Origin: Anaerolineales bacterium
GTDB lineage: Bacteria > Chloroflexota > Anaerolineae > Anaerolineales > Villigracilaceae
Length of the DNA: 64,000 nt
Reading direction: 5' to 3'
NCBI GenBank assembly: GCA_050305405.1
Contig: JBNLFG010000015.1
Location: 68,971-132,970, forward strand
Below the pieces are notes generated by a model. That model saw only the letters and a list, made by a program, of their open reading frames with translations, did not search any database and had not been told where the DNA came from. Positions 47,499-59,021 of this stretch are shown in pieces. The position numbers and the translations under genes were made by a program. Each line of letters starts with the position of its first letter. Positions within the stretch are counted from its first letter, which is position 1.

Positions 47499-47553
47499 AG
47501 TTATCCTAAATAATCTCTGAGATTGGTTCAATCTTAAAGATTGAACCAATCTG

Positions 47554-48294
47554 TTAAAATCCACGCCGCTGGCCAGACCAGGGAGCGGGCACGTTTTCTT
47601 TGAATTCATCCACGCTGGGACCTTGCAGGTTGCGCAAGCGCCATGTGCCATATAGATAGGTAATCACAAGCAAAAGAGCAAGTGCTGGAAATCCCGTTAG
47701 GGGCTGCACCCAAGCGAGTTGTGTCGCATCGCCGCCTTGATAGAGAGCAAGCTGCCACCAGAATTTGACGCTAAAGAAGAGCGCCCAGAGCAGAGTGGTT
47801 TCGGTGTAGGCTGGCCGCACTCGAGGATGCCAGTACCAAGTCAAATCCCAGCGGCGAGAGATGAAGCTAGTCCAGGCGGTCAGCGGACGACCGACGAGCA
47901 GGCTCAGGAGGCACAAAGCAACTGTCAGCCCGCCACTCAAGACACCGGGCAGGAAGAAACTCTCGGCACGCCCGAGTAACGTGACCAAGCCGATTGCCAG
48001 CAGAACGCTAAGAACGCCGAACAAGCCGTAGGTCAGGGGTTCGTTCCGGCGCACACGGCGAATGCCGAGCAGGACGCTTAATCCCAGCGCTGCCCACATG
48101 GCGAAGCGCAGTCCCCAAATCGCATTGGCAATTAAGAAGAGCAGCGGCGGCAGGATGGCATCCACAAGACGCGCCCCCAGCACGGCGCTAAATTCATCGC
48201 GAAGTTCGGCGAGCTTAGAGGGCATGTTTTCCCATCCAGAATTTCGCCCAATCGCCGTTGCTTTTTTGCAGGGCGAGGAAGGCGTAGAGCGCAC
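47554..48294 (-). CDS. Polytopic membrane protein of unknown function. Start uncertain.
   Basis: 6 predicted TM segments. Confidence 0.4.
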   Translation of the reverse strand: MRSTPSSPCKKATAIGRNSGWENMPSKLAELRDEFSAVLGARLVDAILPPLLFLIANAIWGLRFAMWAALGLSVLLGIRRVRRNEPLTYGLFGVLSVLLAIGLVTLLGRAESFFLPGVLSGGLTVALCLLSLLVGRPLTAWTSFISRRWDLTWYWHPRVRPAYTETTLLWALFFSVKFWWQLALYQGGDATQLAWVQPLTGFPALALLLVITYLYGTWRLRNLQGPSVDEFKENVPAPWSGQRRGF

Positions 48295-48544: not shown

Positions 48545-48593
48545 AATAATTCCCAGAAGTGACAGTCACCTTAAAGGTGACTGTCACTTGATT

Positions 48594-48929
48594 TTATAGG
48601 AGGAAGAGCACGCCGAAAACGATCTCGACGACAAAACTGATCAGATTGGATTGCTCACGGGATTTATCAGCGACGATGCTGATGCCGCGCACCGCAGCAA
48701 TGACGAGATAGACGATACCGAGCGTGGGGTAGGCTTGGTTGCCAAGAACAAAGGGCGCTATGCCCAGCCCTATGAATGTTCCGCCAAAAATAGCGCGCAC
48801 TTCCGAAATACCACGTCGACCAATGGGCTTGATACCCGTAAAACCGTCGATTTTGGTAGGTGCGAGGAGTGAATACAGTCCGGTTAAAATCGTGGCGATA
48901 GCGGCGATAATCTGAAGAATTGAGATCAT
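48594..48929 (-). CDS. Small membrane protein (DUF4345-like, tentative)
   Basis: 111 aa. AAGGAG RBS. Confidence 0.45.
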   Translation of the reverse strand: MISILQIIAAIATILTGLYSLLAPTKIDGFTGIKPIGRRGISEVRAIFGGTFIGLGIAPFVLGNQAYPTLGIVYLVIAAVRGISIVADKSREQSNLISFVVEIVFGVLFLL

Positions 48930-49051: not shown

Positions 49052-49516
49052 TTACCCAAAAAGCTCTTTCACCTTCACCGTCCGAAAGTCAAAAATGCCT
49101 TTCAGACGGCGCCCCACCCAAAGCGCGTGGACAATGTCTCCGAGAAAACCGAAAGGTAACTCGTAAGTGATTTGGTCAGTAATCTGTGTGCCGCCCTCCA
49201 CCGCTTCAAAACGATGTTCGTGATACCAGAAGCGATAAGGGCCGATCCGCTGCTCATCGACGAAATAGGCCTTCTCTTCAACATGCGCGATCTCGGTCAG
49301 CCAGCGTGATTTAACGAGCGGCATGAACTGCACGCGATATTCGATCAGCTGTCCCTGAAACATCTTGCCTTCCCCGCCGTGAATAATCTCAAATTGCATA
49401 TCGTCAGGGGTCATCTCGTTCAGGTTTTGGGGTGTGGCGAAGTATGCCCAAACATCAGCGAGTGGAGCGGGGACGGTTTGTTGACGGATTAGACGCTGGA
49501 TCATTGCATACTCCAA
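49052..49516 (-). CDS. SRPBCC-superfamily protein (paralog)
   Basis: FWYHEHRFE motif. Confidence 0.6.
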   Translation of the reverse strand: MEYAMIQRLIRQQTVPAPLADVWAYFATPQNLNEMTPDDMQFEIIHGGEGKMFQGQLIEYRVQFMPLVKSRWLTEIAHVEEKAYFVDEQRIGPYRFWYHEHRFEAVEGGTQITDQITYELPFGFLGDIVHALWVGRRLKGIFDFRTVKVKELFG

Positions 49517-50145
49517 GAAAAGACTAGCGCAGCGGGAATATTCGAATACTCTTTATCTTCCATCCAATAGCCCATCTCACCAAGAAAAGTTGTTTCTCTT
49601 CGCTGGTCAGGGCTAAGTCTGTCGAATAACGAAATCACCTTGTGGAGCTCGGTTTTAACCGGAGGCTTACGCAAAATTTCGACGAGCTTTTCTGCCAATC
49701 CCTCGAAACTGAACTGCTCCATATTTTTCTCCAATTCCCGAAGAGTTTCTTCACCACGCACCAAAACCGAGTAACGATGATGCTGCCAAAGCTCTTGCTT
49801 ATTACGGGGAAGGGGAATACGCCCTTGTTGTTTACCGTCGTATTTAGCGCCTAGCAGAGAAATTTGTTTAGCCGGAGCGTCAAGAAAAAGCGGGAAATCT
49901 GTTGTATCATGAATAACGGGCAGAGGAGAATGATGTTGATAGCCACGTAACTTCATCTCTAAAACAAGTAGTTCATGACGGAAAGCCAACGCACCAAGTG
50001 TATTCGCCCAACGCATCGTTTCAGGATGCCGTGAATAGCCTTTCTTCTGATTGATGTGAATAGAGATCAGGCCGTGCAATTCACGATGTTCGCCCAAAAG
50101 GCTGGTACGGCTTAAATAACCCGGCGAAATATCCCAAATCCGCAT
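49501..50145 (-). CDS. Pyrimidine dimer DNA glycosylase / UV endonuclease (T4 endonuclease V family)
   Basis: N-terminal MRIWDISPGYL...EHRELHG matches the DenV-like LxxxHLxxEYREL block. Confidence 0.7.
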   Translation of the reverse strand: MRIWDISPGYLSRTSLLGEHRELHGLISIHINQKKGYSRHPETMRWANTLGALAFRHELLVLEMKLRGYQHHSPLPVIHDTTDFPLFLDAPAKQISLLGAKYDGKQQGRIPLPRNKQELWQHHRYSVLVRGEETLRELEKNMEQFSFEGLAEKLVEILRKPPVKTELHKVISLFDRLSPDQRRETTFLGEMGYWMEDKEYSNIPAALVFSWSMQ

Positions 50146-50147
50146 CG

Positions 50148-50987
50148 TTATTTCTCTTTCGCAATCCCGGCAAAGCCGAGCGCGCCAATGCCCAGATTTG
50201 TTCCCAAAACGGGCGTAATCTGCTGAATGATGATCTCGCTTTCAGGCAAATATTTGCGGGCTTGCTCACGCAATTCTTCAGCGCGTTCCTGCACGCCCGC
50301 ATGGACGACGGCCAACTGCTCAAAGGGACCATATTCATCCAGCCAAGTGAAGAGGCGATTGATCGCATTTTGCCTGGTGCGCACACGGTGAGCATCCGGT
50401 TTGCCATTATTCATAAAGACAAGCGGCTTCAGGCGCAACAACTCACCAAAACGTGCCACAGCGATATGCATTCGTCCGCTGCGGCGCAGATATTCGAGTG
50501 TATCCAGCGCAGCAAAAACATAGGCACGCGGCATCATCGCATTCAGCTTTTCTACGATCTCTTCAAGTTTTGCCCCAAGTTTCGCCATATGTGCAGCATG
50601 TCGAACCAGAAAGCCCATACCCAGGCTAAGCTGCGTTGAATCCAGCACGGTGACGGGAATTCGGGTAAATTCTTTCGCCGCCAAACGTGCCGAGTTGATG
50701 GTTGCGCTCAATGACTCTGAGATGTGGATCGAGAGAATTGCCTGCGCACCCTGCTCCGCGAGCGCTTCAAAACGCTCGGCGAAAACTTCCGGTCCCGGTG
50801 CAGCCGTGCTGGGAGATGGGTCATAATCCGGTAGGCGGCGGTAAAACTCTGCTTTGGTGATACTCACACCATCCACAAAGGTCTCGCTGCCCATATTGAT
50901 ATGCAACGGGATAACTTCGATGCCATATTCTGCGATGGTCTCAGCAGGCAGGTCACAGGTACTGTCAGTTACGATACGAATACTCAT
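50148..50987 (-). CDS. DegV family fatty-acid-binding protein
   Basis: N-terminal IVTDSTCDLP motif and DegV fold length. Confidence 0.8.
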   Translation of the reverse strand: MSIRIVTDSTCDLPAETIAEYGIEVIPLHINMGSETFVDGVSITKAEFYRRLPDYDPSPSTAAPGPEVFAERFEALAEQGAQAILSIHISESLSATINSARLAAKEFTRIPVTVLDSTQLSLGMGFLVRHAAHMAKLGAKLEEIVEKLNAMMPRAYVFAALDTLEYLRRSGRMHIAVARFGELLRLKPLVFMNNGKPDAHRVRTRQNAINRLFTWLDEYGPFEQLAVVHAGVQERAEELREQARKYLPESEIIIQQITPVLGTNLGIGALGFAGIAKEK

Positions 50988-50996
50988 ATTTTCCTC

Positions 50997-51929
50997 CTAA
51001 AGCAGGTCAGCAAGGGCGGTTTCAAAATCATCGAATCGGAAGTGAAAACCTTCCAATCGCAAATTATCGGGGACAGCACGCTGCCCATCGAGGACAAGCG
51101 TGGATTTCTCGCCCAGCGCCAATTTCAGGATGAAAGCTGGAGTCGGGATAAAGCTCGGACGGCGCAAGAGACGCCCGGCGATTTTGGCTAGTTCCCGCTG
51201 CTTGAGCGGATTCGAGGCCGTTAGGTTATAGGCGCCACGCGCATCTTCGTTATTCAGGAGGAAGCGAATAGCATTCACCTCATCTTCGATATGGATCCAC
51301 GGCACAACCTGCTCGCCACTACCCAAATTGCCGCCTGCAAAAAGACGGAAGGGCAGCAACATGATCGGCAGGATACCGCCTTTCGGCGCAAGCACCAACC
51401 CTGTGCGGATGACCGCACGCCGCACACCCAACGCACCGAGTTTAGCCGTCGAGTCTTCCCAGATGCGGCAGGTCTCAGCGAGAAAATCTTCGCCTGCTGC
51501 GCTGTTTTCGGGGACTTCCTCGTCGCCACGGGGACCGTAATAGCCCACCGCCGATGCCTGAATAAAGACCTGCGGCCTCTTCTCCGAATTTTCGATAGCG
51601 GAAACAAGTGCATTCCCCGCGTCCATGCGGCTTTGCCGGATGCGGGTTTTGGATGCGGCATTCCAGCGTTTGGTCAGAATGTCGAACAGGGATTCACCTG
51701 CGATGCTTTCGCCCGCGAGATTGATAACCGCGTCCATCGTGGGGATTAAGTGAGACCACCCCTCGGGGCTGCGCCCATCCCATTGAAACGGAAGCACGCC
51801 GGAAGGGAGCGTGTCCCGTGCTTTGTCAACATTCCGCGTCAGGACGCTAATCTCATGTCCATCTGCGAGGAGCGCATCAATCAACGCGCGTCCGATCAAG
51901 CCGGTACCACCAGTCATTAATATTTTCAT
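50997..51929 (-). CDS. TIGR01777-family NAD-dependent epimerase-like protein (SDR39U1/YfcH)
   Basis: ILMTGGTGLIGRAL Rossmann motif. C-terminal DUF1731-like tail. Confidence 0.75.
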   Translation of the reverse strand: MKILMTGGTGLIGRALIDALLADGHEISVLTRNVDKARDTLPSGVLPFQWDGRSPEGWSHLIPTMDAVINLAGESIAGESLFDILTKRWNAASKTRIRQSRMDAGNALVSAIENSEKRPQVFIQASAVGYYGPRGDEEVPENSAAGEDFLAETCRIWEDSTAKLGALGVRRAVIRTGLVLAPKGGILPIMLLPFRLFAGGNLGSGEQVVPWIHIEDEVNAIRFLLNNEDARGAYNLTASNPLKQRELAKIAGRLLRRPSFIPTPAFILKLALGEKSTLVLDGQRAVPDNLRLEGFHFRFDDFETALADLL

Positions 51930-51946
51930 TTTCTTATCCTATAAAA

Positions 51947-51975
51947 TAAAACGCCCGCATCTGCTAGGCGTTCGC
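51947..51975 (-). terminator. Intrinsic terminator/attenuator spanning the stop codon of the MerR-B12 gene
   Basis: mRNA hairpin GAACGCC-UAGCAGAUGCG-GGCGUUU followed by UUUAUUUUAU. Confidence 0.5.
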
Positions 51976-53256
51976 GTAAATTTCACTTTGTGTTTCAAGC
52001 CACTCAACCAAGGGCGCTGAGATTTCTCCCAGTATTTCGTAGCTCGCTTTGGCATAAACATCCAGAAAATTCTCAACCTGTATGATCTTGATATCACGGT
52101 GATTCAGCAAATCTTTTACCCAAGCTAATTCGGGCAGAAGGAGATCAAGATTGCCGAGATAAAGAGCGGCAGCGATATTTTCACTGAGCGCTTCGGTAGC
52201 GACGGTGAGGGCTTGCAGCGGGAAATCCCACTGCGCAAGGGTTTCATTGAGAAGGGCATGAATACCCGCTCGATTGCGGTGAAAGGCATCCAGCAACGCC
52301 TGATGGGGATTCTCTGGAAAAAGATACTCTTCTGCTTTATGTGCTAAGAGGGTTTCGATACTGGCAAGAATTTCAGGAAAACCCATCCCCAGAAAATGCC
52401 CGTGAACACGCTCCTGCGTAGCAGGCGTGCTGTGAAAAATGCGTCCGCTGTAGCCAATCGTCACACCGCAGGGAGCAAGTTCACGCACGGTTTGCTCAAG
52501 CGTGGCTGCGCTGGAAAGCTGTTGGGCAGAGAAAAGCACGAGTTGGGGCTGAATGGAATCGACCGTTTCTCTGAACTCTTCCAGAGGGACGTTGGTGCCA
52601 AGGTAGACCACATGATAGCCACGCCGTCGTAGGAAGAGGGTCAGCATGAGCGATGAAAGGGTATGCTCTTCTTTGGGGGGACAAGCCACAATAATCTTTT
52701 CAGGTCGGGTTGGCACAGGGGCAGAGGTAATGAGCGCATTCAAACGACGCATAAGGAGTGCCGAGGCAAAATGTTCCTGCTGAACAGAGACTTTTCCCTG
52801 ATACCAAAGCTCACCGATCTCGCGAATTGCTGGAACAAATATCTCTGTAAAGGCAACTTCCGGCGAGAAGCGCGAAAAGACCTGGCTGGCAACTTGCTCG
52901 GCTCTTACATCATTAAAAGCAATACAGGCAGCAATCCAATTGCTGCGAAAACTTTCCAATTGTGAGTGATCTGCACTTATCAAGACAGGTTGAGTGCCTT
53001 CACTAAGTGGGTCTTCCCCAGCAACAACCCTGCTCTGCCAGAGCTTGACCGCCTGCCCAATGCGCATACCGCGCGTCTGTTGACGCATCAGCCATTTGAT
53101 AACTTCCACATCATGTTCGGAGTAGAGGCGATGGCCTCCTTCAGTGCGTTCAGGTTGGGGCAGGTTATAGCGCCGCTCCCAGGCACGCAAAGTATCGGCG
53201 TTGATGCCTGTTTCGCGTAAAACGGTACCGAGATTGTAGGTTGCAAGTTGATTCAT
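51964..53256 (-). CDS. MerR-family regulator with a cobalamin-binding photoreceptor module (CarH/LitR-like) plus a roughly 150-aa C-terminal extension
   Basis: N-terminal MerR HTH. Wx9EH motif (WYQGKVSVQQEH). B12 Rossmann domain with an E-x-H-x-x-S lower-ligand motif and VVYLGTNVP. Confidence 0.75.
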   Translation of the reverse strand: MNQLATYNLGTVLRETGINADTLRAWERRYNLPQPERTEGGHRLYSEHDVEVIKWLMRQQTRGMRIGQAVKLWQSRVVAGEDPLSEGTQPVLISADHSQLESFRSNWIAACIAFNDVRAEQVASQVFSRFSPEVAFTEIFVPAIREIGELWYQGKVSVQQEHFASALLMRRLNALITSAPVPTRPEKIIVACPPKEEHTLSSLMLTLFLRRRGYHVVYLGTNVPLEEFRETVDSIQPQLVLFSAQQLSSAATLEQTVRELAPCGVTIGYSGRIFHSTPATQERVHGHFLGMGFPEILASIETLLAHKAEEYLFPENPHQALLDAFHRNRAGIHALLNETLAQWDFPLQALTVATEALSENIAAALYLGNLDLLLPELAWVKDLLNHRDIKIIQVENFLDVYAKASYEILGEISAPLVEWLETQSEIYANA

Positions 53257-53286
53257 TCTGAAGAAATCCTTTGTTGAAGTATACAC

Positions 53287-53373
53287 ATAATAGCATTACA
53301 GAACAAACTTGTCAAGTATTTGCACAGAATACATGTGCAAATACTTGACAAAACAAAATTAACCATGTATATT
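53287..53373. promoter_or_regulatory. Divergent sigma-70 promoters (TTGACA-17-TATTAT leftward, TTGACA-17-TATATT rightward). Both -35 boxes lie inside a perfect 18-7-18 palindromic operator (53309..53351).
   Basis: TTGTCAAGTATTTGCACA gaataca TGTGCAAATACTTGACAA, read directly from the sequence. Confidence 0.65.
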
Positions 53374-53413
53374 CACACCATATTGGTCAACTTTAACCAA
53401 AAAGGAACAGTTT

Positions 53414-54562
53414 ATGTCAGCTTATCTTAGTCTCAAAGAAATTTGGCGCAACAAAGGGCGCTTCTTCCTCTTCAGTCTCGTCATTGCCTTGATCGCTATT
53501 TTAGTGCTCTTCACTGCGGGTCTTGGCGAGGGGCTCGCCTCCGCGAATAAGGAATATCTCGAAAAACTGGATGCAGAACTACTCGTTTTTCAGGAAGGCT
53601 CCAGCTATTCCACCATTGAAAGCCGTCTGGATTACCAGAAAGTCAAGCGGATCAACCGCGTAGACGGGATCGCAGATGCCGGAGCGATCGGTTTCTCGAA
53701 CGCCGAAATCGTCCTCGGCGAGGGGCTTGATCCCATTGATATATCTTTTATCGGTATCGAACCCGGGAAGCCGGGACTCCCCGCCCCCATTCTCGGTGAA
53801 ACGATCCGCTCCCGTCAGGCAAAAGTCATCATGGTCGACGAAAGAATCGCGAAAGCTGCCAACATCAGCGTCGGGGACTATATCACCATCAAATCCACGC
53901 AGGGTACTGACGATAAATACTTCGACTTACGCGTGGTCGGCATCACCAGCGGACAGCAGTACTTCTTTCAACCTTCAGCTTTCGTCTCGCTCTCAATTTG
54001 GGATAAATACCGTCCCAAAGCAGACCCCAATATTTCATCATCCCGCCCGGTCACCAATATCGTCGCCGTGCGGCTGGAAAACCCCGAAGCCATGGAAGAA
54101 ATGGGCGCGCGCATCGCATCCGCCGTTACCGACGTGGAAACATCTGACATCAAAACCGCCTACGAGTCCTCACCCGGCTACTCCGCCCAACAAAGCACGT
54201 TGAACACGATCAAAGGCTTCACCTTCCTGATCGGCACATTGGTTATCGGTGGCTTCTTCCAAATTCAGACCCTGCAAAAAGTGCCCCAGATCGGCATGTT
54301 GAAAGCCATCGGCACCCCTAATTTCACCGTCGCAACTGCCGCCATCATGCAAATCATCTTCGTGACCGTCTTCGGGGTCGGTTTTGGCGGGCTGGTCGTG
54401 CTCGGACTTGCCTTGGGATTGCCTTCAAGCGTCCCAATTCTATTCACAGGCACATCCATTGCCATCGCCACGGTCTCCCTACTGCTCATTGGCCCGATTG
54501 GCGGCATGGTGTCCATTCGTCTCGCACTCAAAGTTGAACCGCTACGCGCCTTAGGCATGTAG
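53414..54562 (+). CDS. MacB/FtsX-type ABC permease with a periplasmic domain
   Basis: N-terminal TM, a roughly 220-aa periplasmic domain, then a C-terminal FtsX 3-TM bundle. Confidence 0.75.
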   Translation: MSAYLSLKEIWRNKGRFFLFSLVIALIAILVLFTAGLGEGLASANKEYLEKLDAELLVFQEGSSYSTIESRLDYQKVKRINRVDGIADAGAIGFSNAEIVLGEGLDPIDISFIGIEPGKPGLPAPILGETIRSRQAKVIMVDERIAKAANISVGDYITIKSTQGTDDKYFDLRVVGITSGQQYFFQPSAFVSLSIWDKYRPKADPNISSSRPVTNIVAVRLENPEAMEEMGARIASAVTDVETSDIKTAYESSPGYSAQQSTLNTIKGFTFLIGTLVIGGFFQIQTLQKVPQIGMLKAIGTPNFTVATAAIMQIIFVTVFGVGFGGLVVLGLALGLPSSVPILFTGTSIAIATVSLLLIGPIGGMVSIRLALKVEPLRALGM

Positions 54563-54571
54563 GAGAAAACC

Positions 54572-55399
54572 ATGAACAACAAATATATTCTCGAAACCAA
54601 AGATGTTACAAAAATTTACGACGGCAACGGCTTGATTGTCAAAGCTGTCGATGAAGTCTCTTTACATGTCAAAGCAGGCGAATTTGTTGGGCTGGTCGGC
54701 CCCAGCGGATCAGGCAAAACGACCATGCTAGCCATGCTCGCCACCCTGCTGCGTGAAAGCAAAGGCAGCCTGATGATCGACGGACAGGATTTGGGCGCAA
54801 TGAGCGACAAAGAGCGCACCAAATTCCGCCGCGAGCGCATCGGCTTTACCTTTCAATCGAATAACCTCGTCCCCTATCTGACTGCGCTCGAAAACGTCGA
54901 ATTGATGCTGCGCCTAAACAAGAAAAGCGGACGTCAGAGCCGAGAGCAGGCCGCCGCCCTACTTACCCGACTGGGATTGGAAGATCGTCTCGACAGCCTG
55001 CCTTCCCAGCTATCTGGCGGACAGCAACAGCGTGTGGCGATTGCCCGCTCGCTCATCCATGACCCGAGCGTGGTGCTCGCCGATGAGCCGACAGCCAGTC
55101 TTGACACGGAACGCGCCAATCAGGTCGTCGGCATCTTTGCTGACCTGATCCACGAAGGCAACCGCGCTGGCATCATGGTCACCCACGACCTGCGCATGTG
55201 CAAATACGTCGACAAAGTCGTCCAGATGGTCGATGGCAAAATCGCCCACATCATCACCGAACGCGCCGAGATCAATGCTCTTGCCAATAACAGCGAATTT
55301 GAAAGAATACCCGAAGTCATAAGCGTGCCGGAGCCGATCTTGCTTCGCAAGCCAAGCTTGCATCAAACCGATCTGGCTGCCATGCCTTCCGGAAACTAA
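54572..55399 (+). CDS. ABC ATP-binding protein (MacB/LolD-type)
   Basis: GPSGSGKTT Walker [14 protein letters not shown] signature. Confidence 0.85.
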
Positions 55400-55475
55400 C
55401 CCGAAAACAGTATAGGGATGGTCGAAGAAGATCATTCCCATCTAAACAAACAGCCCCATACTCAGGAGAACTCTG

Positions 55476-56531
55476 ATGAAACGAACATTCATTTTCACCC
55501 TACTTATTCTTTCCGCTTTTGCTGTGAGCGCCTGCGGTGGCGCAGCAACGGTTGAAGCCGCTGCCGACGCAAGCACAGCCAATCTTACCGAGAACGCCAT
55601 CATTGCCGAAGGACGTTTGGAACCGGTCGAATTTGCCCAGTTGGCATTCTCTAGCAGCGGCGTTGTTGAAGAAGTATTGATCACTGAAGGCCAGACTATC
55701 GCTGCCGGAGATCTAATCGCGCGGCTCCAAAACACCGATGTTTTGGTCGCTGATATCGAGAACGCGAACGCGGAACTCGAAAATGCCGAAACCGCCCTGA
55801 TAAACGAATTATCTGAAGCTTACAAGGAATACCGCTCTGCACAAGAGCAAGTGGATACCTTCTTCGTTTCAGCACGTTTCGCTGGCATGACCCCAACCGA
55901 AGCCGCAGTTGCAATGCTCGATGAAGTGAACAAAGCTCGTGCCAACTACGAGCCTTATTTCGGCACAGAAAAGCCACGCGGATTTGTAAAGGGCCTGAAA
56001 GAAGCCCTTGATGATAGCTGGGCATATTACAACCATGCCCTCGAATGGGTAAACCGTGAAGCGCGCTTCAATGCTGCCCAAGTCCGGTTGGCACAGGCAC
56101 AACAAAATTTGGCAGATTTTCGGTCCGGGCAGAATATCGTTGTCCAGCGCGAACTTTTGGCGGCACAAAATGCGCTGGAAAGCGCGGAACTGCGCACCCC
56201 ATTCAACGGAACGGTAGCAGACCTGAACGTCAAAGCGGGCGAAGCGGTTGGCGCAGGCAGTGCGGCAGTCATCATTGCAGATTTCTCCAACTGGATCATC
56301 AAAACCACCGATCTATCTGAACTGGATGTTGTCAACATCCGCGAAGGGCAGAGCGTCGTCGTCACGCTTGATGCGCTTCCGAATATAGCCCTGGCCGGCA
56401 CCGTTGAAGCGATCGGCACAACCTTCAGCAACGCACAGGGTGACGTGACCTATGAGGTCATCATCAGCCTGCAAGAGAGCAATCCTGCAATGCGTTGGGG
56501 CATGACGGCACTGGTTGAATTTGATGAATAA
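55476..56531 (+). CDS. HlyD/MFP-family periplasmic adaptor lipoprotein
   Basis: Lipobox VSAC. Coiled-coil hairpin and beta-barrel regions. Confidence 0.75.
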   Translation: MKRTFIFTLLILSAFAVSACGGAATVEAAADASTANLTENAIIAEGRLEPVEFAQLAFSSSGVVEEVLITEGQTIAAGDLIARLQNTDVLVADIENANAELENAETALINELSEAYKEYRSAQEQVDTFFVSARFAGMTPTEAAVAMLDEVNKARANYEPYFGTEKPRGFVKGLKEALDDSWAYYNHALEWVNREARFNAAQVRLAQAQQNLADFRSGQNIVVQRELLAAQNALESAELRTPFNGTVADLNVKAGEAVGAGSAAVIIADFSNWIIKTTDLSELDVVNIREGQSVVVTLDALPNIALAGTVEAIGTTFSNAQGDVTYEVIISLQESNPAMRWGMTALVEFDE

Positions 56532-56599
56532 GAATATTTAAGATAAAATTGGTAAGAATTAGAAATATTCTCTCATCTAAAGCAGTAAGGAGAAACACA

Positions 56600-57217
56600 A
56601 TGAAAAAACTCAACCTGGAAAAGCTGGTTTGCACCCGTATCCCGACAGAAGAGGGTTCGTTCCAGCTTTGCCTGTACGATAACGATAACGACCACAAGGA
56701 ACATATGGCGCTGGTCTTTGGCGATGTGCGCGGCAAGGATGTGCTCGTGCGCGTCCACTCGGAATGCTTTACCGGCGATGTACTCGGTTCGCAGCGCTGT
56801 GATTGTGGGCCACAATTGCATTATGCAATGGATGCTGTCGCCAACGAAGGGCGCGGCATCGTGCTCTATCTGCGACAGGAAGGTCGCGGCATCGGATTGG
56901 CAGAAAAGCTGCGCGCCTACAATTTGCAGGATGAGGGCTTGGACACAGTGGATGCGAATTTGGCATTGGGTCACCAAGCCGACGAACGCGAATATGATAT
57001 TGCCGTAGCAATGCTTAAGGATTTGGGCGTCGAATCGGTACGCCTGTTGACCAATAACCCCGCCAAAATCGAATCGCTCACCGCCCTGGGTATGCCCGTG
57101 GACGAACGTGTCCCGATCCTGATCCAGCCCAACGATGAGAATATCCACTACCTGGCAACCAAAGCCGAACGAATGCGGCATCTCTTCGCCTTTGATCGGG
57201 TGCCTGTCAGAATTTAG
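56600..57217 (+). CDS. ribA: GTP cyclohydrolase II
   Basis: RVHSECFTGDVLGSQRCDCG zinc/catalytic motif. Confidence 0.85.
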   Translation: MKKLNLEKLVCTRIPTEEGSFQLCLYDNDNDHKEHMALVFGDVRGKDVLVRVHSECFTGDVLGSQRCDCGPQLHYAMDAVANEGRGIVLYLRQEGRGIGLAEKLRAYNLQDEGLDTVDANLALGHQADEREYDIAVAMLKDLGVESVRLLTNNPAKIESLTALGMPVDERVPILIQPNDENIHYLATKAERMRHLFAFDRVPVRI

Positions 57218-57223
57218 ACAGCA

Positions 57224-57253
57224 AAAAGCCGAGCGTAATGCTCGGCTTTTTTT
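57224..57253. terminator. Bidirectional intrinsic terminator
   Basis: AAAAGCCGAGC-gtaat-GCTCGGC followed by TTTTTTT. Confidence 0.7.
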
Positions 57254-57263
57254 GTTTAGCCTT

Positions 57264-57755
57264 TTACATCCCCTCCATCGGCTCCCAATACCCCAAGACC
57301 TGTCCTCTTGGCTCTGCCCACAGTTCTTCCCAAGCATCAATTTCAAAACCAAGATAAGCAGCCGCAGCCGGATTAAAGGGCTGGAAACGATCAGAGAAAA
57401 ACTCAAAGGCGCTCGAGATGGTCGGGTTATGACCAACGATCAGCGCGGTTTCGACATCGCCGGGCAAAGCAGAGAGCAGATCAACATAATCACGAATTTC
57501 GGCATTGTAGAGCGCATCGGAATAGAGCGGCTCAACAGCAGACGGGAGGTTTTCGAGCACCAGCGCCAAGGTCTCGCGCGTGCGCTGCGCGGCTGAACAG
57601 AAAATTGCGTCCAGAACAATTTCTTGAGATTGGAGTAATTTTCCCATCGCAGAAGCATCGCTACGACCACGCGCACTGAGTAAGCGTTGATGATCGAGTT
57701 TCCCCGCTTGATAGGGGCTTGAATGGGCGTGGCGCATTAAGATGAGTTTCTTCAT
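57264..57755 (-). CDS. sixA: SixA-type phosphohistidine phosphatase
   Basis: LILMRHAHS histidine-phosphatase motif. Roughly 160 aa. Confidence 0.75.
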   Translation of the reverse strand: MKKLILMRHAHSSPYQAGKLDHQRLLSARGRSDASAMGKLLQSQEIVLDAIFCSAAQRTRETLALVLENLPSAVEPLYSDALYNAEIRDYVDLLSALPGDVETALIVGHNPTISSAFEFFSDRFQPFNPAAAAYLGFEIDAWEELWAEPRGQVLGYWEPMEGM

Positions 57756-57833
57756 AGGCTCTCCTGCCTATTATTCTACTGTCTTTTTCTTCAGAGGAGT
57801 ATAATTTTCAGTACACTCAACCAAACCAAAGGA

Positions 57834-59021
57834 ATGCTCATGCCAACTGATTTCGATACAGTGATCGACCGCCGTTCCAGCAACTCCGTCAAGTGGAACG
57901 CTTTTGCTGAAGATATACTCCCCATGTGGGTCGCCGATATGGACTTCGCCGCCCCGCCCGCCATTCTCGGTGCGCTGCACGGCGCTATTGGACATGGCGT
58001 TTTGGGCTATGAATTTGCCACCGAAAAACTACGCGCCAGCGTCGCCGCACGCATGCAGCGTCTCTACAATTGGGATCTGACCGCCGATGACGTCGTCCCT
58101 GTACCCGGCTTGGTGACCGGCTTCAATCTAGCCGCGCGCATCACTTGTCAGCCCGGTGAGGGCATTCTCATCCAACCGCCAGTCTACTTCCCCTTTATGA
58201 AGGTGCAGAAGAACACCGGCACTGTCATGCAAGTTGCCGAACTCAAAAAAGTCACGCACGGCCACACTTTGCACCACGAAATTGACTGGGATATTTTTGA
58301 AAACGCCATCCACTCGGAAGATGCGAAAACCAGCATGTTCCTGCTCTGCAACCCGCATAACCCGACCGGCACAATTTACACAAAAGAAGAGCTCGGCCGC
58401 ATGGTTGAAATCTGTGAGAAGGAAGATATTCTGATCTGCTCGGACGAAATTCACAGCGAATTACTTCTCGGTGGCACCAAACATCTTCCCATCGCAACGC
58501 TCTCCCCCGAAGCTGCTCAGCGGACGATAACATTGGTCGCGGCGAGTAAAACCTTCAATGTCGCGGGGCTATTCGTCGGCTTTGCGATCATCCAAAACAA
58601 GGAAATCCGCGAGAAATTCAAAGCCGAAGCCGAAAAACTGACCCTGCACACCAACGCTCTTGGGCATATCGCATCCGAGGTCGCTTTTGCGGGCGAATGC
58701 GATGAATGGCTCGACGAGCTACTCGTCTACCTGACCGACAACCGCGATTTCGTCGTCAATTATGTCGAGAAGAACCTGCCCGGGGTACGCGTCTCGAAAC
58801 CGGATGCGACCTTCCTATCTTGGCTGGATTTCAGCGAATTGGTAGCGCAGGGCAAGGTCAGCGAACCTTTGCAGGATTTCTTCATCGAGAAAGGCAAAGT
58901 CGCCTTCAACGAGGGCGCCAGCTTTGGCCCCGGCGGCGAGGGCTTTATCCGCCTGAATTTCGGTTGTCCGCGTAAGACATTAGTCGATGGATTGGAGCGA
59001 ATCAAAAAGGCCTTGGGATAG
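57834..59021 (+). CDS. PLP-dependent aminotransferase class I/II, MalY/PatB-like C-S lyase
   Basis: SKTFNVAG PLP-lysine motif. Confidence 0.8.
   Translation: MLMPTDFDTVIDRRSSNSVKWNAFAEDILPMWVADMDFAAPPAILGALHGAIGHGVLGYEFATEKLRASVAARMQRLYNWDLTADDVVPVPGLVTGFNLAARITCQPGEGILIQPPVYFPFMKVQKNTGTVMQVAELKKVTHGHTLHHEIDWDIFENAIHSEDAKTSMFLLCNPHNPTGTIYTKEELGRMVEICEKEDILICSDEIHSELLLGGTKHLPIATLSPEAAQRTITLVAASKTFNVAGLFVGFAIIQNKEIREKFKAEAEKLTLHTNALGHIASEVAFAGECDEWLDELLVYLTDNRDFVVNYVEKNLPGVRVSKPDATFLSWLDFSELVAQGKVSEPLQDFFIEKGKVAFNEGASFGPGGEGFIRLNFGCPRKTLVDGLERIKKALG

What the first reader, a model, noticed from the sequence alone, without database searches (positions are those of the whole stretch)
53287..53373. 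Perfect 18-7-18 palindrome embedding both -35 boxes of divergent consensus promoters
TTGTCAAGTATTTGCACA-gaataca-TGTGCAAATACTTGACAA (53309..53351) is a perfect inverted repeat. Its left arm contains the -35 TTGACA (minus strand, 17-bp spacer to TATTAT) that drives the CarH-like gene. Its right arm contains the -35 TTGACA (17-bp spacer to TATATT) that drives the MacB/HlyD efflux-ribA operon. One repressor bound here would shut both promoters. This is a textbook autoregulated divergent operator, and the neighbouring B12 photoreceptor is the most plausible binder. It implies light control of an efflux system plus GTP cyclohydrolase II.
Basis: seen in the sequence. Interest (0 to 1): 0.65.

Follow-up and report, generated by a model that had tools for sequence, protein, structure and literature searches.

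The report
Light-sensor operator between divergent promoters
The perfect palindrome is real and is most likely the DNA docking site of the neighbouring vitamin-B12 light-sensor repressor, built from four 11-bp repeats that cover the -35 boxes of two back-to-back promoters, so that light would switch on both the sensor's own operon and a MacB-type export pump.

Summary
A perfect 18-7-18 inverted repeat (53309-53351) sits between two 11/12-match sigma-70 promoters, and both -35 hexamers lie in its arms.

Comparison across loci shows a conserved operator, not a hairpin. The half-site TGTGCAAATACTTGACAA is about 60 times denser upstream of homologues of the adjacent regulator than in other intergenic DNA. 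It also marks the crtB/crtI (carotenoid) intergenic regions next to those homologues. In nine macB-linked loci both arms, both -10 boxes and the 7-bp gap are kept, while the spacer sequences drift and the arms change without keeping complementarity.

Each arm is two tandem 11-bp repeats (TnnGCA, then TnnACA), the known CarH repeat type. The 2+2 inverted layout is the commonest in this family and differs from the 3-4 tandem repeats of studied CarH proteins.

The regulator has a MerR helix (RAWERRY), Wx9EH and ExH motifs, and an extra C-terminal phycobiliprotein-like domain. This is the predicted MerR-B12-photoglobin architecture, whose solved relatives are the photocobilins. No DNA-binding member has been characterised in the papers I searched.

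FtsX/MacB-family ABC exporters recur downstream of this site in metagenomes. Co-regulation of ribA is less certain. DNA binding and light response are inferred, not shown.

The parts
53334..53351 (+). Right arm, the operator half for the macB promoter: TGTGCAAATACTTGACAA. It is two tandem 11-bp repeats, TnnGCA with its core at 53334-53340 and TnnACA at 53345-53351. The second contains the -35 box.
   Evidence: Same-strand sites in the family lie 11 bp apart in 17 of 18 pairs. The repeat consensus comes from PMC9304148.
53309..53326 (-). Left arm, the operator half for the regulator promoter. It is the same 18-mer on the minus strand, and its outer repeat contains the -35 box.
53327..53333 (.). 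Central gap of 7 bp. Its length is kept in all nine macB-linked loci while its sequence varies.
   Evidence: A start-to-start offset of 25-26 bp is the commonest for divergent site pairs (15 pairs).
53345..53373 (+). P_macB: -35 TTGACA (53345-53350), 17-nt spacer, -10 TATATT (53368-53373). The predicted transcription start is near 53380.
   Evidence: The -10 block GTATATTC is conserved in seven of the eight aligned loci. The start site is inferred.
53287..53315 (-). P_reg: -35 TTGACA (53315-53310), 17-nt spacer, extended -10 TGcTATTAT (to 53287). The predicted transcription start is near 53280.
   Evidence: The TGCTATTAT block is conserved. The same -35 / 17 nt / TGnTAnnnT pattern lies upstream of distant homologues.
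51964..53256 (-). Regulator, 430 aa. It has a MerR HTH (RAWERRY, residues 24-30), a B12-binding four-helix bundle (Wx9EH, 151-162), a Rossmann domain (E196-x-H198) and a C-terminal phycobiliprotein-like globin domain (about 286-430).
53414..55399 (+). macB-type permease (MacB_PCD and FtsX, 53414-54562) and ABC ATPase (54572-55399). This pair is the conserved core of the target operon.
   Evidence: Synteny is shown.
55476..56531 (+). HlyD / YknX-like membrane-fusion adaptor. It is present in the closer relatives and absent in L001 and L062.
56600..57217 (+). ribA, GTP cyclohydrolase II, 205 aa from the ATG at 56600. It is probably the last gene of the operon but may have its own promoter in the 68-nt gap.
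   Evidence: TIGR00505 at 248.8 bits, above its cut-off of 205.85. Gap alignment. Homologues of 205 aa.
57223..57251 (+). Strong intrinsic-terminator-like hairpin (13 pairs followed by a T run) that would end the macB-ribA transcript.
49052..51929 (-). Genes probably co-transcribed with the regulator: a TIGR01777-family oxidoreductase (50997-51929), DegV (50148-50987), a pyrimidine-dimer DNA glycosylase (49501-50145) and a 154-aa ORF (49052-49516; no Pfam run and no NCBIfam match, weak tblastn matches next to some homologues). Gaps are 34, 9 and 2 nt, and the last two ORFs overlap. No strong terminator lies between them.
   Evidence: Linkage of the regulator to the oxidoreductase and DegV is widespread. 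The exact half-site directly precedes an oxidoreductase plus a homologue of the 154-aa ORF in L159.

Best explanation
The 43-bp element is the operator of the adjacent MerR-family B12 photoreceptor.

It is made of four 11-bp CarH-type repeats with core T-n-n-R-C-A, two in tandem on each strand and pointing outwards, separated by 7 bp. The outer repeat of each arm is the -35 hexamer of a near-consensus promoter.

In the dark, the adenosylcobalamin-loaded regulator would bind as an oligomer. The most likely form is two head-to-tail dimers, one per arm and held in a fixed helical register. This would cover both -35 boxes and exclude RNA polymerase.

That would repress two transcription units:
- its own operon: the regulator, a TIGR01777-family oxidoreductase, DegV, a pyrimidine-dimer glycosylase and a 154-aa ORF;
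- the divergent macB-abc-hlyD(-ribA) operon.

Light would break the Co-C bond, dissolve the oligomer and release both promoters. The extra bilin-type globin domain might extend the response to red light.

Shown here: the sequence anatomy, the conservation, the co-occurrence of site and regulator, and the protein motifs and fold. Inferred: DNA binding, stoichiometry, repression, dependence on B12 and light, and the extent of both operons.
For: 1. Anatomy and uniqueness.

2. The site travels with the regulator. At up to 4 mismatches the window's 18-mer occurs at 1.0 per kb in the 350 nt upstream of 80 regulator homologues (39-59% identical), against 0.017 per kb in other intergenic DNA. In 39 of 80 loci a site lies upstream of the regulator or in the crtB/crtI intergenic region next to it. 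L027 and L034 carry the identical 18-mer although their proteins are only about 41% identical.

3. The homologues look like CarH-type regulators by context. In 29 of 80 loci the gene follows crtI, with a divergent crtB. In 11 more it is itself divergent from crtB. The sites sit in those intergenic regions.

4. Footprint. In eight macB-linked loci both arms and both -10 boxes are conserved blocks with no indel between the arms. The 7-nt centre and both 17-nt spacers vary.

5. No selection for base pairing. Arm complementarity falls to 12-15 of 18 in six of nine loci. The mismatches fall mostly at low-information half-site positions 2 and 8-11.

6. Repeat geometry. Same-strand sites are offset by 11 bp in 17 of 18 pairs. 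Divergent pairs cluster at 14-16, 25-26 (15 pairs), 33-36 and 45-46 bp. There are no convergent pairs. In crt operators the same 2-7-2 geometry is kept but the crtI -35 is the inner repeat. Geometry therefore follows the protein, not the promoter.

7. Match to known CarH. Published operators are tandem 11-bp repeats nnnnTnnACAn that overlap the -35 or -10, read by an RxWERRY helix. Cystobacter CarH dimers each need two tandem repeats (PMC9304148).

8. The protein. It has RAWERRY, Wx9EH and E-x-H. Its best matches among solved structures are T. thermophilus LitR/CarH (3WHP, E = 4e-36; 5C8D, E = 5.5e-36) over residues 5-263.

9. The exporter is a recurrent target. Of 32 metagenomic promoters that carry the exact 18-mer with a -10 box at a 16-18-nt spacer (17 nt in 30 of them), 14 precede FtsX/MacB-family ABC transporter genes of two architectures and 6 precede regulator homologues.
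Against: - There is no experimental evidence here for binding, repression or light response.
- Studied CarH proteins use 3-4 repeats in one orientation. A 2+2 inverted layout has no structural precedent. A third in-phase repeat is rare in this family (about 5 of 88 sites).
- The strict B12 motif D/ExHx2G/P...SxT/V...GG is not matched: Ser replaces Gly/Pro and GG becomes G-x-x-G.
- The protein scores below NCBI's CarH cut-off.
- The extra C-terminal domain could change oligomerisation or signalling.
- Many exporter promoters with the site have no regulator gene on the same contig. For those, the link to this protein is indirect.
- The PWM was seeded from the window's own half-site. The orthologous intergenic regions are not independent samples.
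Confidence: 0.72

Rival explanations
1. The motif is an operator, but for a different, unlinked transcription factor conserved in Anaerolineae. The adjacent photoreceptor gene would then be only one of that factor's targets.
For: Exact copies of the half-site precede ABC transporter, oxidoreductase, sigma-factor and FMN-reductase genes on contigs that carry no regulator gene.
Against: The strongest and most general association is with the regulator gene itself and with the crt genes beside it, across unrelated neighbourhoods. The motif has the 11-bp T-n-n-ACA repeat structure read by the RxWERRY helix that this protein carries. No other regulator gene lies at the locus. Targets acting in trans are expected for any regulon.
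Confidence: 0.1
2. No repressor is involved. The arms are promoter sequence only (a -35 box plus an upstream element), duplicated in inverted orientation to make two strong constitutive promoters.
For: Both promoters are near consensus (11 of 12), and the region upstream of each -35 box is AT-rich.
Against: TGTGCAAA does not accompany other promoter-like sites in the window: the next best PWM score is 13.8 bits against 27.1. In crt operators a repeat (TAGACAA) lies inside the promoter spacer and the -35 is the inner repeat. Divergent arms keep a spacing ladder of about 10-11 bp, which two independent promoters have no reason to keep.
Confidence: 0.05
3. The palindrome acts as a nucleic-acid structure: a bidirectional terminator, an RNA hairpin or a cruciform.
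For: The terminator scan flags it on the minus strand as 19 pairs with a loop of 7 and a T-rich tail. It gives weak hairpin-type matches to miRNA models.
Against: It lies between the -35 boxes of two genes that point away from it, so neither promoter transcribes it. The relatives change the arms without compensating changes, down to 12 of 18 complementary. The Rfam matches are far below gathering scores, for example 22.9 against 65 bits.
Confidence: 0.02

Closest known systems
Thermus thermophilus CarH (LitR) and its operator (PDB 5C8D, 5C8E)
   Same: Both have a MerR HTH, a four-helix bundle with Wx9EH and a Rossmann B12 domain with a His ligand. The protein is the window regulator's best sequence and fold match. 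The operator is built from 11-bp repeats nnnnTnnACAn, one of which contains the -35 box, and the protein acts as a repressor (PMC9304148).
   Different: The Thermus protein binds as a tetramer to three tandem repeats in one orientation. Here there are two plus two repeats in inverted orientation. The Thermus protein ends after the Rossmann domain (chains of 290-305 aa). The window protein has about 145 further residues, and has Tyr rather than His after the Trp of Wx9EH.
Bacillus megaterium CarH and Cystobacter CarH
   Same: Both depend on AdoCbl to bind tandem 11-bp repeats that overlap the -35 or -10. The Cystobacter protein binds as dimers, each needing two tandem repeats, and two dimers act cooperatively. 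This is the closest precedent for one dimer per arm.
   Different: Their repeats are all head to tail (four in B. megaterium, overlapping sets in Cystobacter). They are not back to back, and they serve one promoter.
Myxococcus xanthus CarA/CarH operator at the crt promoter
   Same: The operator of about 55 bp includes inverted repeats and the -35 TTGACA. It is bound by two dimers cooperatively and controls light-induced carotenoid synthesis.
   Different: CarA does not depend on B12 and needs the antirepressor CarS. That operator was later read as five tandem repeats and serves one promoter.
Photocobilins (SasPcob 8J2W/8J2X, AbPcob 8J2Y) and the predicted MerR-B12-photoglobin architecture
   Same: A CarH-like B12 domain is followed by a helical globin-type domain. 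Full-model TM-score against these chains is 0.80-0.83 over about 335 columns. The isolated C-terminal domain best matches allophycocyanin, phycocyanin, smURFP and the photocobilins. The MerR fusion was predicted bioinformatically (PMC8717448).
   Different: The characterised photocobilins are stand-alone or fused to a diguanylate cyclase. In the papers read, no DNA-binding member, operator or regulon is described. The C-terminal domain shows no sequence-level similarity to the solved photocobilins. Conservation of the biliverdin-binding Asp was not tested.
LitR-family light regulons of Pseudomonas
   Same: These MerR-type light regulators autoregulate and control photoprotective genes such as photolyase, fatty-acid modification enzymes and GTP cyclohydrolase I (PMC9758184). 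The window pairs a regulator with a pyrimidine-dimer glycosylase, DegV and a GTP cyclohydrolase.
   Different: The Pseudomonas proteins are class II and lack the Rossmann B12 domain. Their cyclohydrolase is type I (folate and pterin), not type II (riboflavin). That paper lists no ABC exporter among the named genes.

Membership tests
CarH/LitR class I (AdoCbl-dependent MerR photoreceptor repressors) | N-terminal MerR HTH with an RxWERRY recognition helix | tested here: met
   MerR_1 and MerR Pfam hits. RAWERRY lies at residues 24-30. DTLRAWERR is invariant in 30 homologues.
CarH/LitR class I (AdoCbl-dependent MerR photoreceptor repressors) | Wx9EH motif in the four-helix bundle, which contacts the adenosyl group | tested here: met
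   WYQGKVSVQQEH at 151-162. W151, E161 and H162 are invariant. The motif aligns with the Thermus CarH motif.
CarH/LitR class I (AdoCbl-dependent MerR photoreceptor repressors) | Classic B12 motif D/ExHx2G/P-x41-SxT/V-x22-27-GG | tested here: inconclusive
   E196-x-H198 is present and invariant. Ser201 replaces Gly/Pro, SAQ replaces SxT/V and G-x-x-G replaces GG. The strict pattern is not matched.
CarH/LitR class I (AdoCbl-dependent MerR photoreceptor repressors) | Protein-level equivalence to CarH (NCBIfam NF052513 cut-off) and a two-module architecture | tested here: not met
   The score is 170.9 bits against a cut-off of 400, and the match covers only residues 2-268. About 145 extra C-terminal residues form a further domain.
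CarH/LitR class I (AdoCbl-dependent MerR photoreceptor repressors) | Operator of 11-bp direct repeats nnnnTnnACAn overlapping the -35 or -10 | tested here: met
   Each arm reads TnnGCA then TnnACA with an 11-bp step, and the second repeat contains the -35. Same-strand sites are offset by 11 bp in 17 of 18 pairs. The consensus comes from PMC9304148.
CarH/LitR class I (AdoCbl-dependent MerR photoreceptor repressors) | Three or four repeats in tandem, all in one orientation | tested here: not met
   There are two repeats per arm and the arms are inverted. A third in-phase repeat appears at about 5 of 88 family sites.
CarH/LitR class I (AdoCbl-dependent MerR photoreceptor repressors) | AdoCbl-dependent oligomerisation and DNA binding that light abolishes | not testable with these tools
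   This needs purified protein, EMSA and size-exclusion analysis in dark and light.
CarH/LitR class I (AdoCbl-dependent MerR photoreceptor repressors) | Genomic link to carotenoid genes | tested here: not met
   The window has no crtB or crtI. The link is met for homologues: 40 of 80 loci have crtI or crtB adjacent.
Photocobilin / B12-photoglobin photoreceptors | CarH-like B12 domain followed by a C-terminal helical globin domain that packs on it | tested here: met
   The full model (pLDDT 88.6) matches 8J2W, 8J2X and 8J2Y with target-normalised TM 0.80-0.83. The isolated domain (pLDDT 87.6) best matches phycobiliproteins, smURFP and 8J2X/8J2W, with query-normalised TM 0.55-0.63 but weak E-values of 0.1-1.
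Photocobilin / B12-photoglobin photoreceptors | Bilin binding (key Asp270 of SasPcob) and optical coupling to B12 | not tested
   No sequence-level alignment to the solved photocobilins could be obtained for the C-terminal domain. The chemistry is not testable here.
MacB-type (FtsX-family) ABC exporter with membrane-fusion adaptor | Permease with MacB_PCD and FtsX domains, a cognate ATPase and an HlyD-family adaptor | tested here: met
   Pfam hits for all three proteins. The ATPase is closest to the LolD, DevA and MacB models but below their cut-offs. Substrate and any outer partner are unknown.
Intrinsic terminator | Hairpin plus T run at the 3' end of a transcription unit | tested here: not met
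   The scan flags the hairpin. However, it lies upstream of both flanking genes, and its pairing is not conserved.

The most novel reading that the evidence does not exclude
The regulator would be the first DNA-binding photocobilin: a transcription factor with two chromophores, B12 and a bilin. It would assemble as a two-fold-symmetric pair of dimers on a 2+2 inverted array of CarH-type repeats. This would give Anaerolineae control by green to red light of FtsX/MacB-family exporters, alongside carotenoid synthesis and UV repair. The exporters might remove photosensitising tetrapyrroles or flavins.
Probability: 0.25. Interest if true: 0.75.

Novelty: new variant of a known kind. Interest (0 to 1): 0.55.

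Why it matters
B12-based light sensing by CarH is well understood for a few proteins that control carotenoid genes.

This locus, with about 90 related loci, gives a defined operator consensus, a spacing rule and a candidate regulon for the large MerR-B12-photoglobin subgroup. In the papers I read, that subgroup is known only as a predicted architecture, while the related photocobilins were studied as enzyme regulators.

It makes three questions directly testable with one 43-bp DNA fragment and one protein:
- whether a photocobilin-type module can gate DNA binding;
- whether a CarH-type protein can read back-to-back repeat pairs;
- whether FtsX/MacB exporters belong to a bacterial light response.

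The compact operator with its two strong promoters is also a ready-made bidirectional light switch for synthetic biology.

If binding or light dependence fails, the element is still a well-conserved divergent operator and promoter pair of ordinary kind.

Tried and rejected
- **RNA or terminator reading.** Rfam found nothing at gathering score in the whole window. Only sub-threshold miRNA-hairpin matches fell on the palindrome. The position and the non-compensated arm changes argue against it.

- **Sites about 70 nt upstream of some homologues.** I first took GGTACAATAyCTGTGCAAAAC.TGGTCAA as proof that the site is conserved independently of a -35 role. These sites lie inside the 3' end of the crtI coding sequence (..GTIPVQNVVN..), so I dropped them as evidence.

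- **A third in-phase repeat, as in the Thermus CarH operator.** I searched for one. It is rare in the family and absent from the window's arms.

- **Exact 18-mer in metagenomes.** Of 100 sites on 97 contigs, 21 lie in frame inside one conserved ORF (..LEIQEKIVQILDKM..). By eye this looks like a type I restriction S subunit, which I did not test. These are coincidences. Only the 32 sites with a -10 box at a 16-18-nt spacer were used.

- **Sequence-level link of the C-terminal domain to solved photocobilins.** Neither phmmer nor a 20-sequence profile found one. Only the fold comparison supports the assignment.

- **CRP-like reading of the centre.** GCACA-N7-TGTGC has the opposite polarity to TGTGA-N6-TCACA (the CRP consensus is from my own knowledge). 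Single-arm sites also lack it.

- **Mobile-element or repeat origin.** The 18-mer is unique to this spot in the window, and the position is orthologous in the relatives.

Full report
**1. The observation**

The repeat finder gives arms 53309-53326 and 53334-53351 of 18 nt, 100% complementary and 7 nt apart.

The promoter scan finds two 11-of-12 matches, the best in 51500-58000:
- On the + strand: TTGACA 53345, 17 nt, TATATT to 53373.
- On the - strand: TTGACA 53315, 17 nt, TATTAT to 53287, preceded by TG.

The 18-mer occurs nowhere else in the window at up to 3 mismatches. Shuffles give 0.05 matches. Long inverted repeats are not rare in this window, so the case rests on position and conservation rather than on the palindrome alone.

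**2. The flanking genes**

The minus-strand gene starts at the ATG at 53256. Thirty homologues align from MNQLATYNLG, and the upstream GTG at 53286 would overlap the -10 box. [quoted passage not shown]

The plus-strand genes are a MacB_PCD/FtsX permease, an ABC ATPase, an HlyD-family adaptor and GTP cyclohydrolase II. A strong terminator-like hairpin follows at 57223-57251.

Downstream of the regulator, on the same strand, lie four more ORFs. They are a TIGR01777-family oxidoreductase, DegV, a pyrimidine-dimer DNA glycosylase and a 154-aa ORF without a family match. The gaps are 34, 9 and 2 nt, the last two ORFs overlap, and there is no convincing terminator. The minus-strand promoter therefore probably drives a five-gene operon.

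**3. Relatives**

The regulator belongs to a large family of 428-450-aa proteins from Anaerolineae and other Chloroflexota. All 120 listed hits carry the MerR and B12-binding_2 domains and all but one the B12-binding domain. In all, 5199 hits reached E <= 1e-10 among the candidates scored.

I fetched four sets of loci:
- 80 genomic loci with homologues 39-59% identical.
- Seven loci for closer relatives, 62-69% identical.
- 97 metagenomic contigs that carry the exact half-site.

**4. The half-site follows the regulator**

With the window's own 18-mer as probe (up to 4 mismatches), sites occur at 1.0 per kb in the 350 nt upstream of the homologues. The density is 0.017 per kb in other intergenic DNA of the same loci.

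In 39 of 80 loci a site lies either there or in the crtB/crtI intergenic region beside the regulator. At up to 5 mismatches this rises to 62 of 80. L027 and L034 carry the identical 18-mer although their proteins are about 41% identical overall and 60-61% in the DNA-binding domain.

Downstream of the site, the regulator promoters share TTGACA, 17 nt, and TGnTAnnnT.

**5. What the homologues sit next to**

- In 29 of 80 loci the regulator follows a phytoene-desaturase-type gene, with a divergent squalene/phytoene synthase gene.
- In 11 loci the regulator is itself divergent from that synthase gene.
- In 7 loci DegV is the upstream neighbour, divergent in 6 of them.
- In the window's own lineage the divergent neighbour is macB.

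High-scoring sites lie in the crtB/crtI intergenic regions. This is the classical CarH context, and it ties the motif to a light-regulated carotenoid regulon. The window itself has no crtB or crtI.

**6. Footprint of the macB-linked loci**

An alignment of eight intergenic regions shows four conserved blocks: the macB -10 (GTATATTC), the left arm, the right arm and the regulator -10 (TGCTATTAT). There is no indel between the arms. The 7-nt centre and both 17-nt promoter spacers vary freely.

The palindrome is perfect in three of nine loci (the window, L081 and L144), each with a different centre. In the other six the arms match at only 12-15 of 18 positions. The differences fall mostly at half-site positions 2 and 8-11, the low-information columns of the family matrix. 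Each arm is therefore selected for its own sequence, not for pairing with the other. That argues for protein recognition and against any hairpin or cruciform function.

**7. Repeat structure**

Published CarH operators are tandem 11-bp direct repeats 5'-nnnnTnnACAn-3'. There are three for the Thermus protein and four for the Bacillus megaterium protein, and they overlap the -35 or -10. They are read by a helix carrying RxWERRY. Cystobacter CarH binds as dimers that each need two tandem repeats (PMC9304148).

Each arm here reads T-GT-GCA-A then, 11 bp on, T-TG-ACA-A. In the family matrix the first core is G or A at the R position.

Across all loci:
- Same-strand sites are offset by exactly 11 bp in 17 of 18 pairs.
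- Divergent pairs fall at start-to-start offsets of 14-16 (4 pairs), 25-26 (15 pairs), 33-36 (6 pairs) and 45-46 (4 pairs). This is a ladder with a step of about one helical turn.
- Convergent pairs do not occur.

The window's offset of 25, which is the 7-bp gap, is therefore the commonest architecture.

In the crtB/crtI operators the same 2-7-2 layout is kept. There, however, the crtI -35 is the inner repeat, and the outer repeat (TAGACAA) lies in the promoter spacer. In the window both -35 boxes are the outer repeats. Geometry thus follows the binding protein rather than the promoters.

A third in-phase repeat is uncommon, at about 5 of 88 sites.

These regions are partly orthologous and so are not independent counts. 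Even so, the macB/regulator and crtB/crtI regions are unrelated contexts that share the layout.

**8. The protein**

It carries RAWERRY (24-30), Wx9EH (151-162) and E196-x-H198, all invariant in 30 homologues.

The strict B12 motif is not matched: Ser stands for Gly/Pro and G-x-x-G for GG. The NCBIfam CarH model scores 170.9 bits against a cut-off of 400 and covers only residues 2-268.

Among solved structures the best sequence matches are T. thermophilus LitR/CarH (3WHP, E = 4e-36; 5C8D, E = 5.5e-36) over residues 5-263.

An AlphaFold model (pLDDT 88.6) matches CarH. Over about 335 columns it also matches the photocobilins 8J2W, 8J2X and 8J2Y, with target-normalised TM 0.80-0.83.

The C-terminal 145 residues were modelled alone (pLDDT 87.6). 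They best match allophycocyanin, phycocyanin, the biliverdin-binding smURFP and the photocobilins, with query-normalised TM 0.55-0.63 and weak E-values.

Photocobilins combine AdoCbl with biliverdin bound in such a globin domain, and they form CarH-like head-to-tail dimers (PMC10979010). The MerR-B12-photoglobin fusion was predicted in a survey which states that none of the loci had been studied experimentally (PMC8717448).

I could not align the C-terminal domain to the solved proteins by sequence. Whether the biliverdin-binding Asp is kept is therefore untested.

**9. The targets**

The macB-abc pair is the conserved core. hlyD is missing in L001, and hlyD and ribA are both missing in L062.

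The 68-nt hlyD-ribA gap contains a conserved AT-rich block, which in L001 and L085 includes TTATAAT. ribA may therefore have its own promoter.

In metagenomes, 32 of 100 exact copies of the half-site have a -10 box at a 16-18-nt spacer (17 nt in 30 of them). Of these:
- 7 precede macB-type permease genes.
- 7 precede ABC ATPase genes. In the two contigs examined, a permease of about 1030 aa with two FtsX domains follows the ATPase.
- 6 precede regulator homologues.
- Single cases precede a TIGR01777-family oxidoreductase, a sigma-70 factor and an FMN reductase.

Some of these contigs are near-duplicates.

FtsX-family exporters are thus a recurrent class of target. What they export is unknown. 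E. coli MacAB-TolC has been reported to export protoporphyrin IX (PMC4263509, title only). This makes removal of a photosensitiser an attractive but untested idea.

Known LitR regulons include photolyase and GTP cyclohydrolase I (PMC9758184). A pyrimidine-dimer glycosylase and a GTP cyclohydrolase II would be analogous members.

**10. Mechanism and verdict**

The best reading has four parts. The AdoCbl-loaded regulator binds the four repeats in the dark, most simply as one dimer per arm held in register. This covers both -35 boxes and represses both operons. Light dissolves the oligomer and frees two near-consensus promoters. The bilin-type domain may broaden the colour range.

The anatomy, the conservation and the link between site and regulator are shown. 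Binding, stoichiometry and light dependence are inferred.

The element is a CarH-type operator in kind. It is a new variant in three respects: its 2+2 inverted layout, its photocobilin-type regulator and its exporter target.

Noticed in passing
window 47520-47552: A perfect 16-1-16 palindrome, AGATTGGTTCAATCTT / AAGATTGAACCAATCT. It lies between the stop of a minus-strand gene (47554..48294) and the likely ATG of the next one (about 47498). It has no T run.
   Followed up: no
window 48557-48589: A second perfect 16-1-16 palindrome, AAGTGACAGTCACCTT / AAGGTGACTGTCACTT. It lies between the stop of 48594..48929 (-) and the ATG at about 48544 (-). The scan flags it as terminator-like on the + strand only.
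   Followed up: no
window 53383-53400: The macB 5' leader holds TTGGTCAACTTTAACCAA, a small hairpin next to the ribosome-binding site. Its 5' half (TTGGTCAA) is conserved in the window, L081, L083 and L086, with one change in L085, but not in L001, L018 or L062.
   Followed up: partly
window 56532-56599: The hlyD-ribA gap carries a conserved AT-rich block (GATAAAA..GGTAA). In L001 and L085 it becomes GGTAATAAAACTTGTTATAATCAC, which may be a separate ribA promoter.
   Followed up: partly
window 49501-50145: A pyrimidine-dimer DNA glycosylase gene (Pyr_excise) sits in the probable regulator operon. This would put UV repair under the same light switch.
   Followed up: partly
L072 12354-12438: Two high-scoring sites (25.7 and 25.4 bits) lie 67 bp apart and back to back, between a 135-aa gene and a Staygreen (PF12638) homologue, about 6.4 kb from the regulator gene.
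   Followed up: partly
L038 5610-5627 and 10871-10899: Sites lie upstream of a protein with three fasciclin repeats and of an AhpC/TSA-like gene. These may be further regulon members.
   Followed up: no
L137 5-22 and L154 171-188: The exact half-site, with a -10 box at a 17-nt spacer, lies at the start of L137, where the first long ORF downstream encodes a sigma-70-family factor with regions 2, 3 and 4. L154 carries the same promoter sequence. This recalls light-induced sigma factors of other carotenoid regulons.
   Followed up: partly
L085 3830-3985: An insertion of about 145 nt with G/C-rich inverted repeats (CCCCCCTCAGGGGGGGG...) lies in the macB leader, between the macB start codon and its promoter. 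It is absent from the other loci.
   Followed up: no
L009, L013, L042, L071, about -70 from the regulator start: GGTACAATAyCTGTGCAAAA lies inside the 3' end of crtI and shows almost no synonymous variation over seven codons. It may be an internal promoter and operator for the regulator, or only coding conservation.
   Followed up: partly
L088, L095, L106 and 18 other metagenome contigs: The exact 18-mer lies in frame inside a conserved ORF (..LEIQEKIVQILDKMTEYV..). This is a coding coincidence unrelated to the operator.
   Followed up: yes
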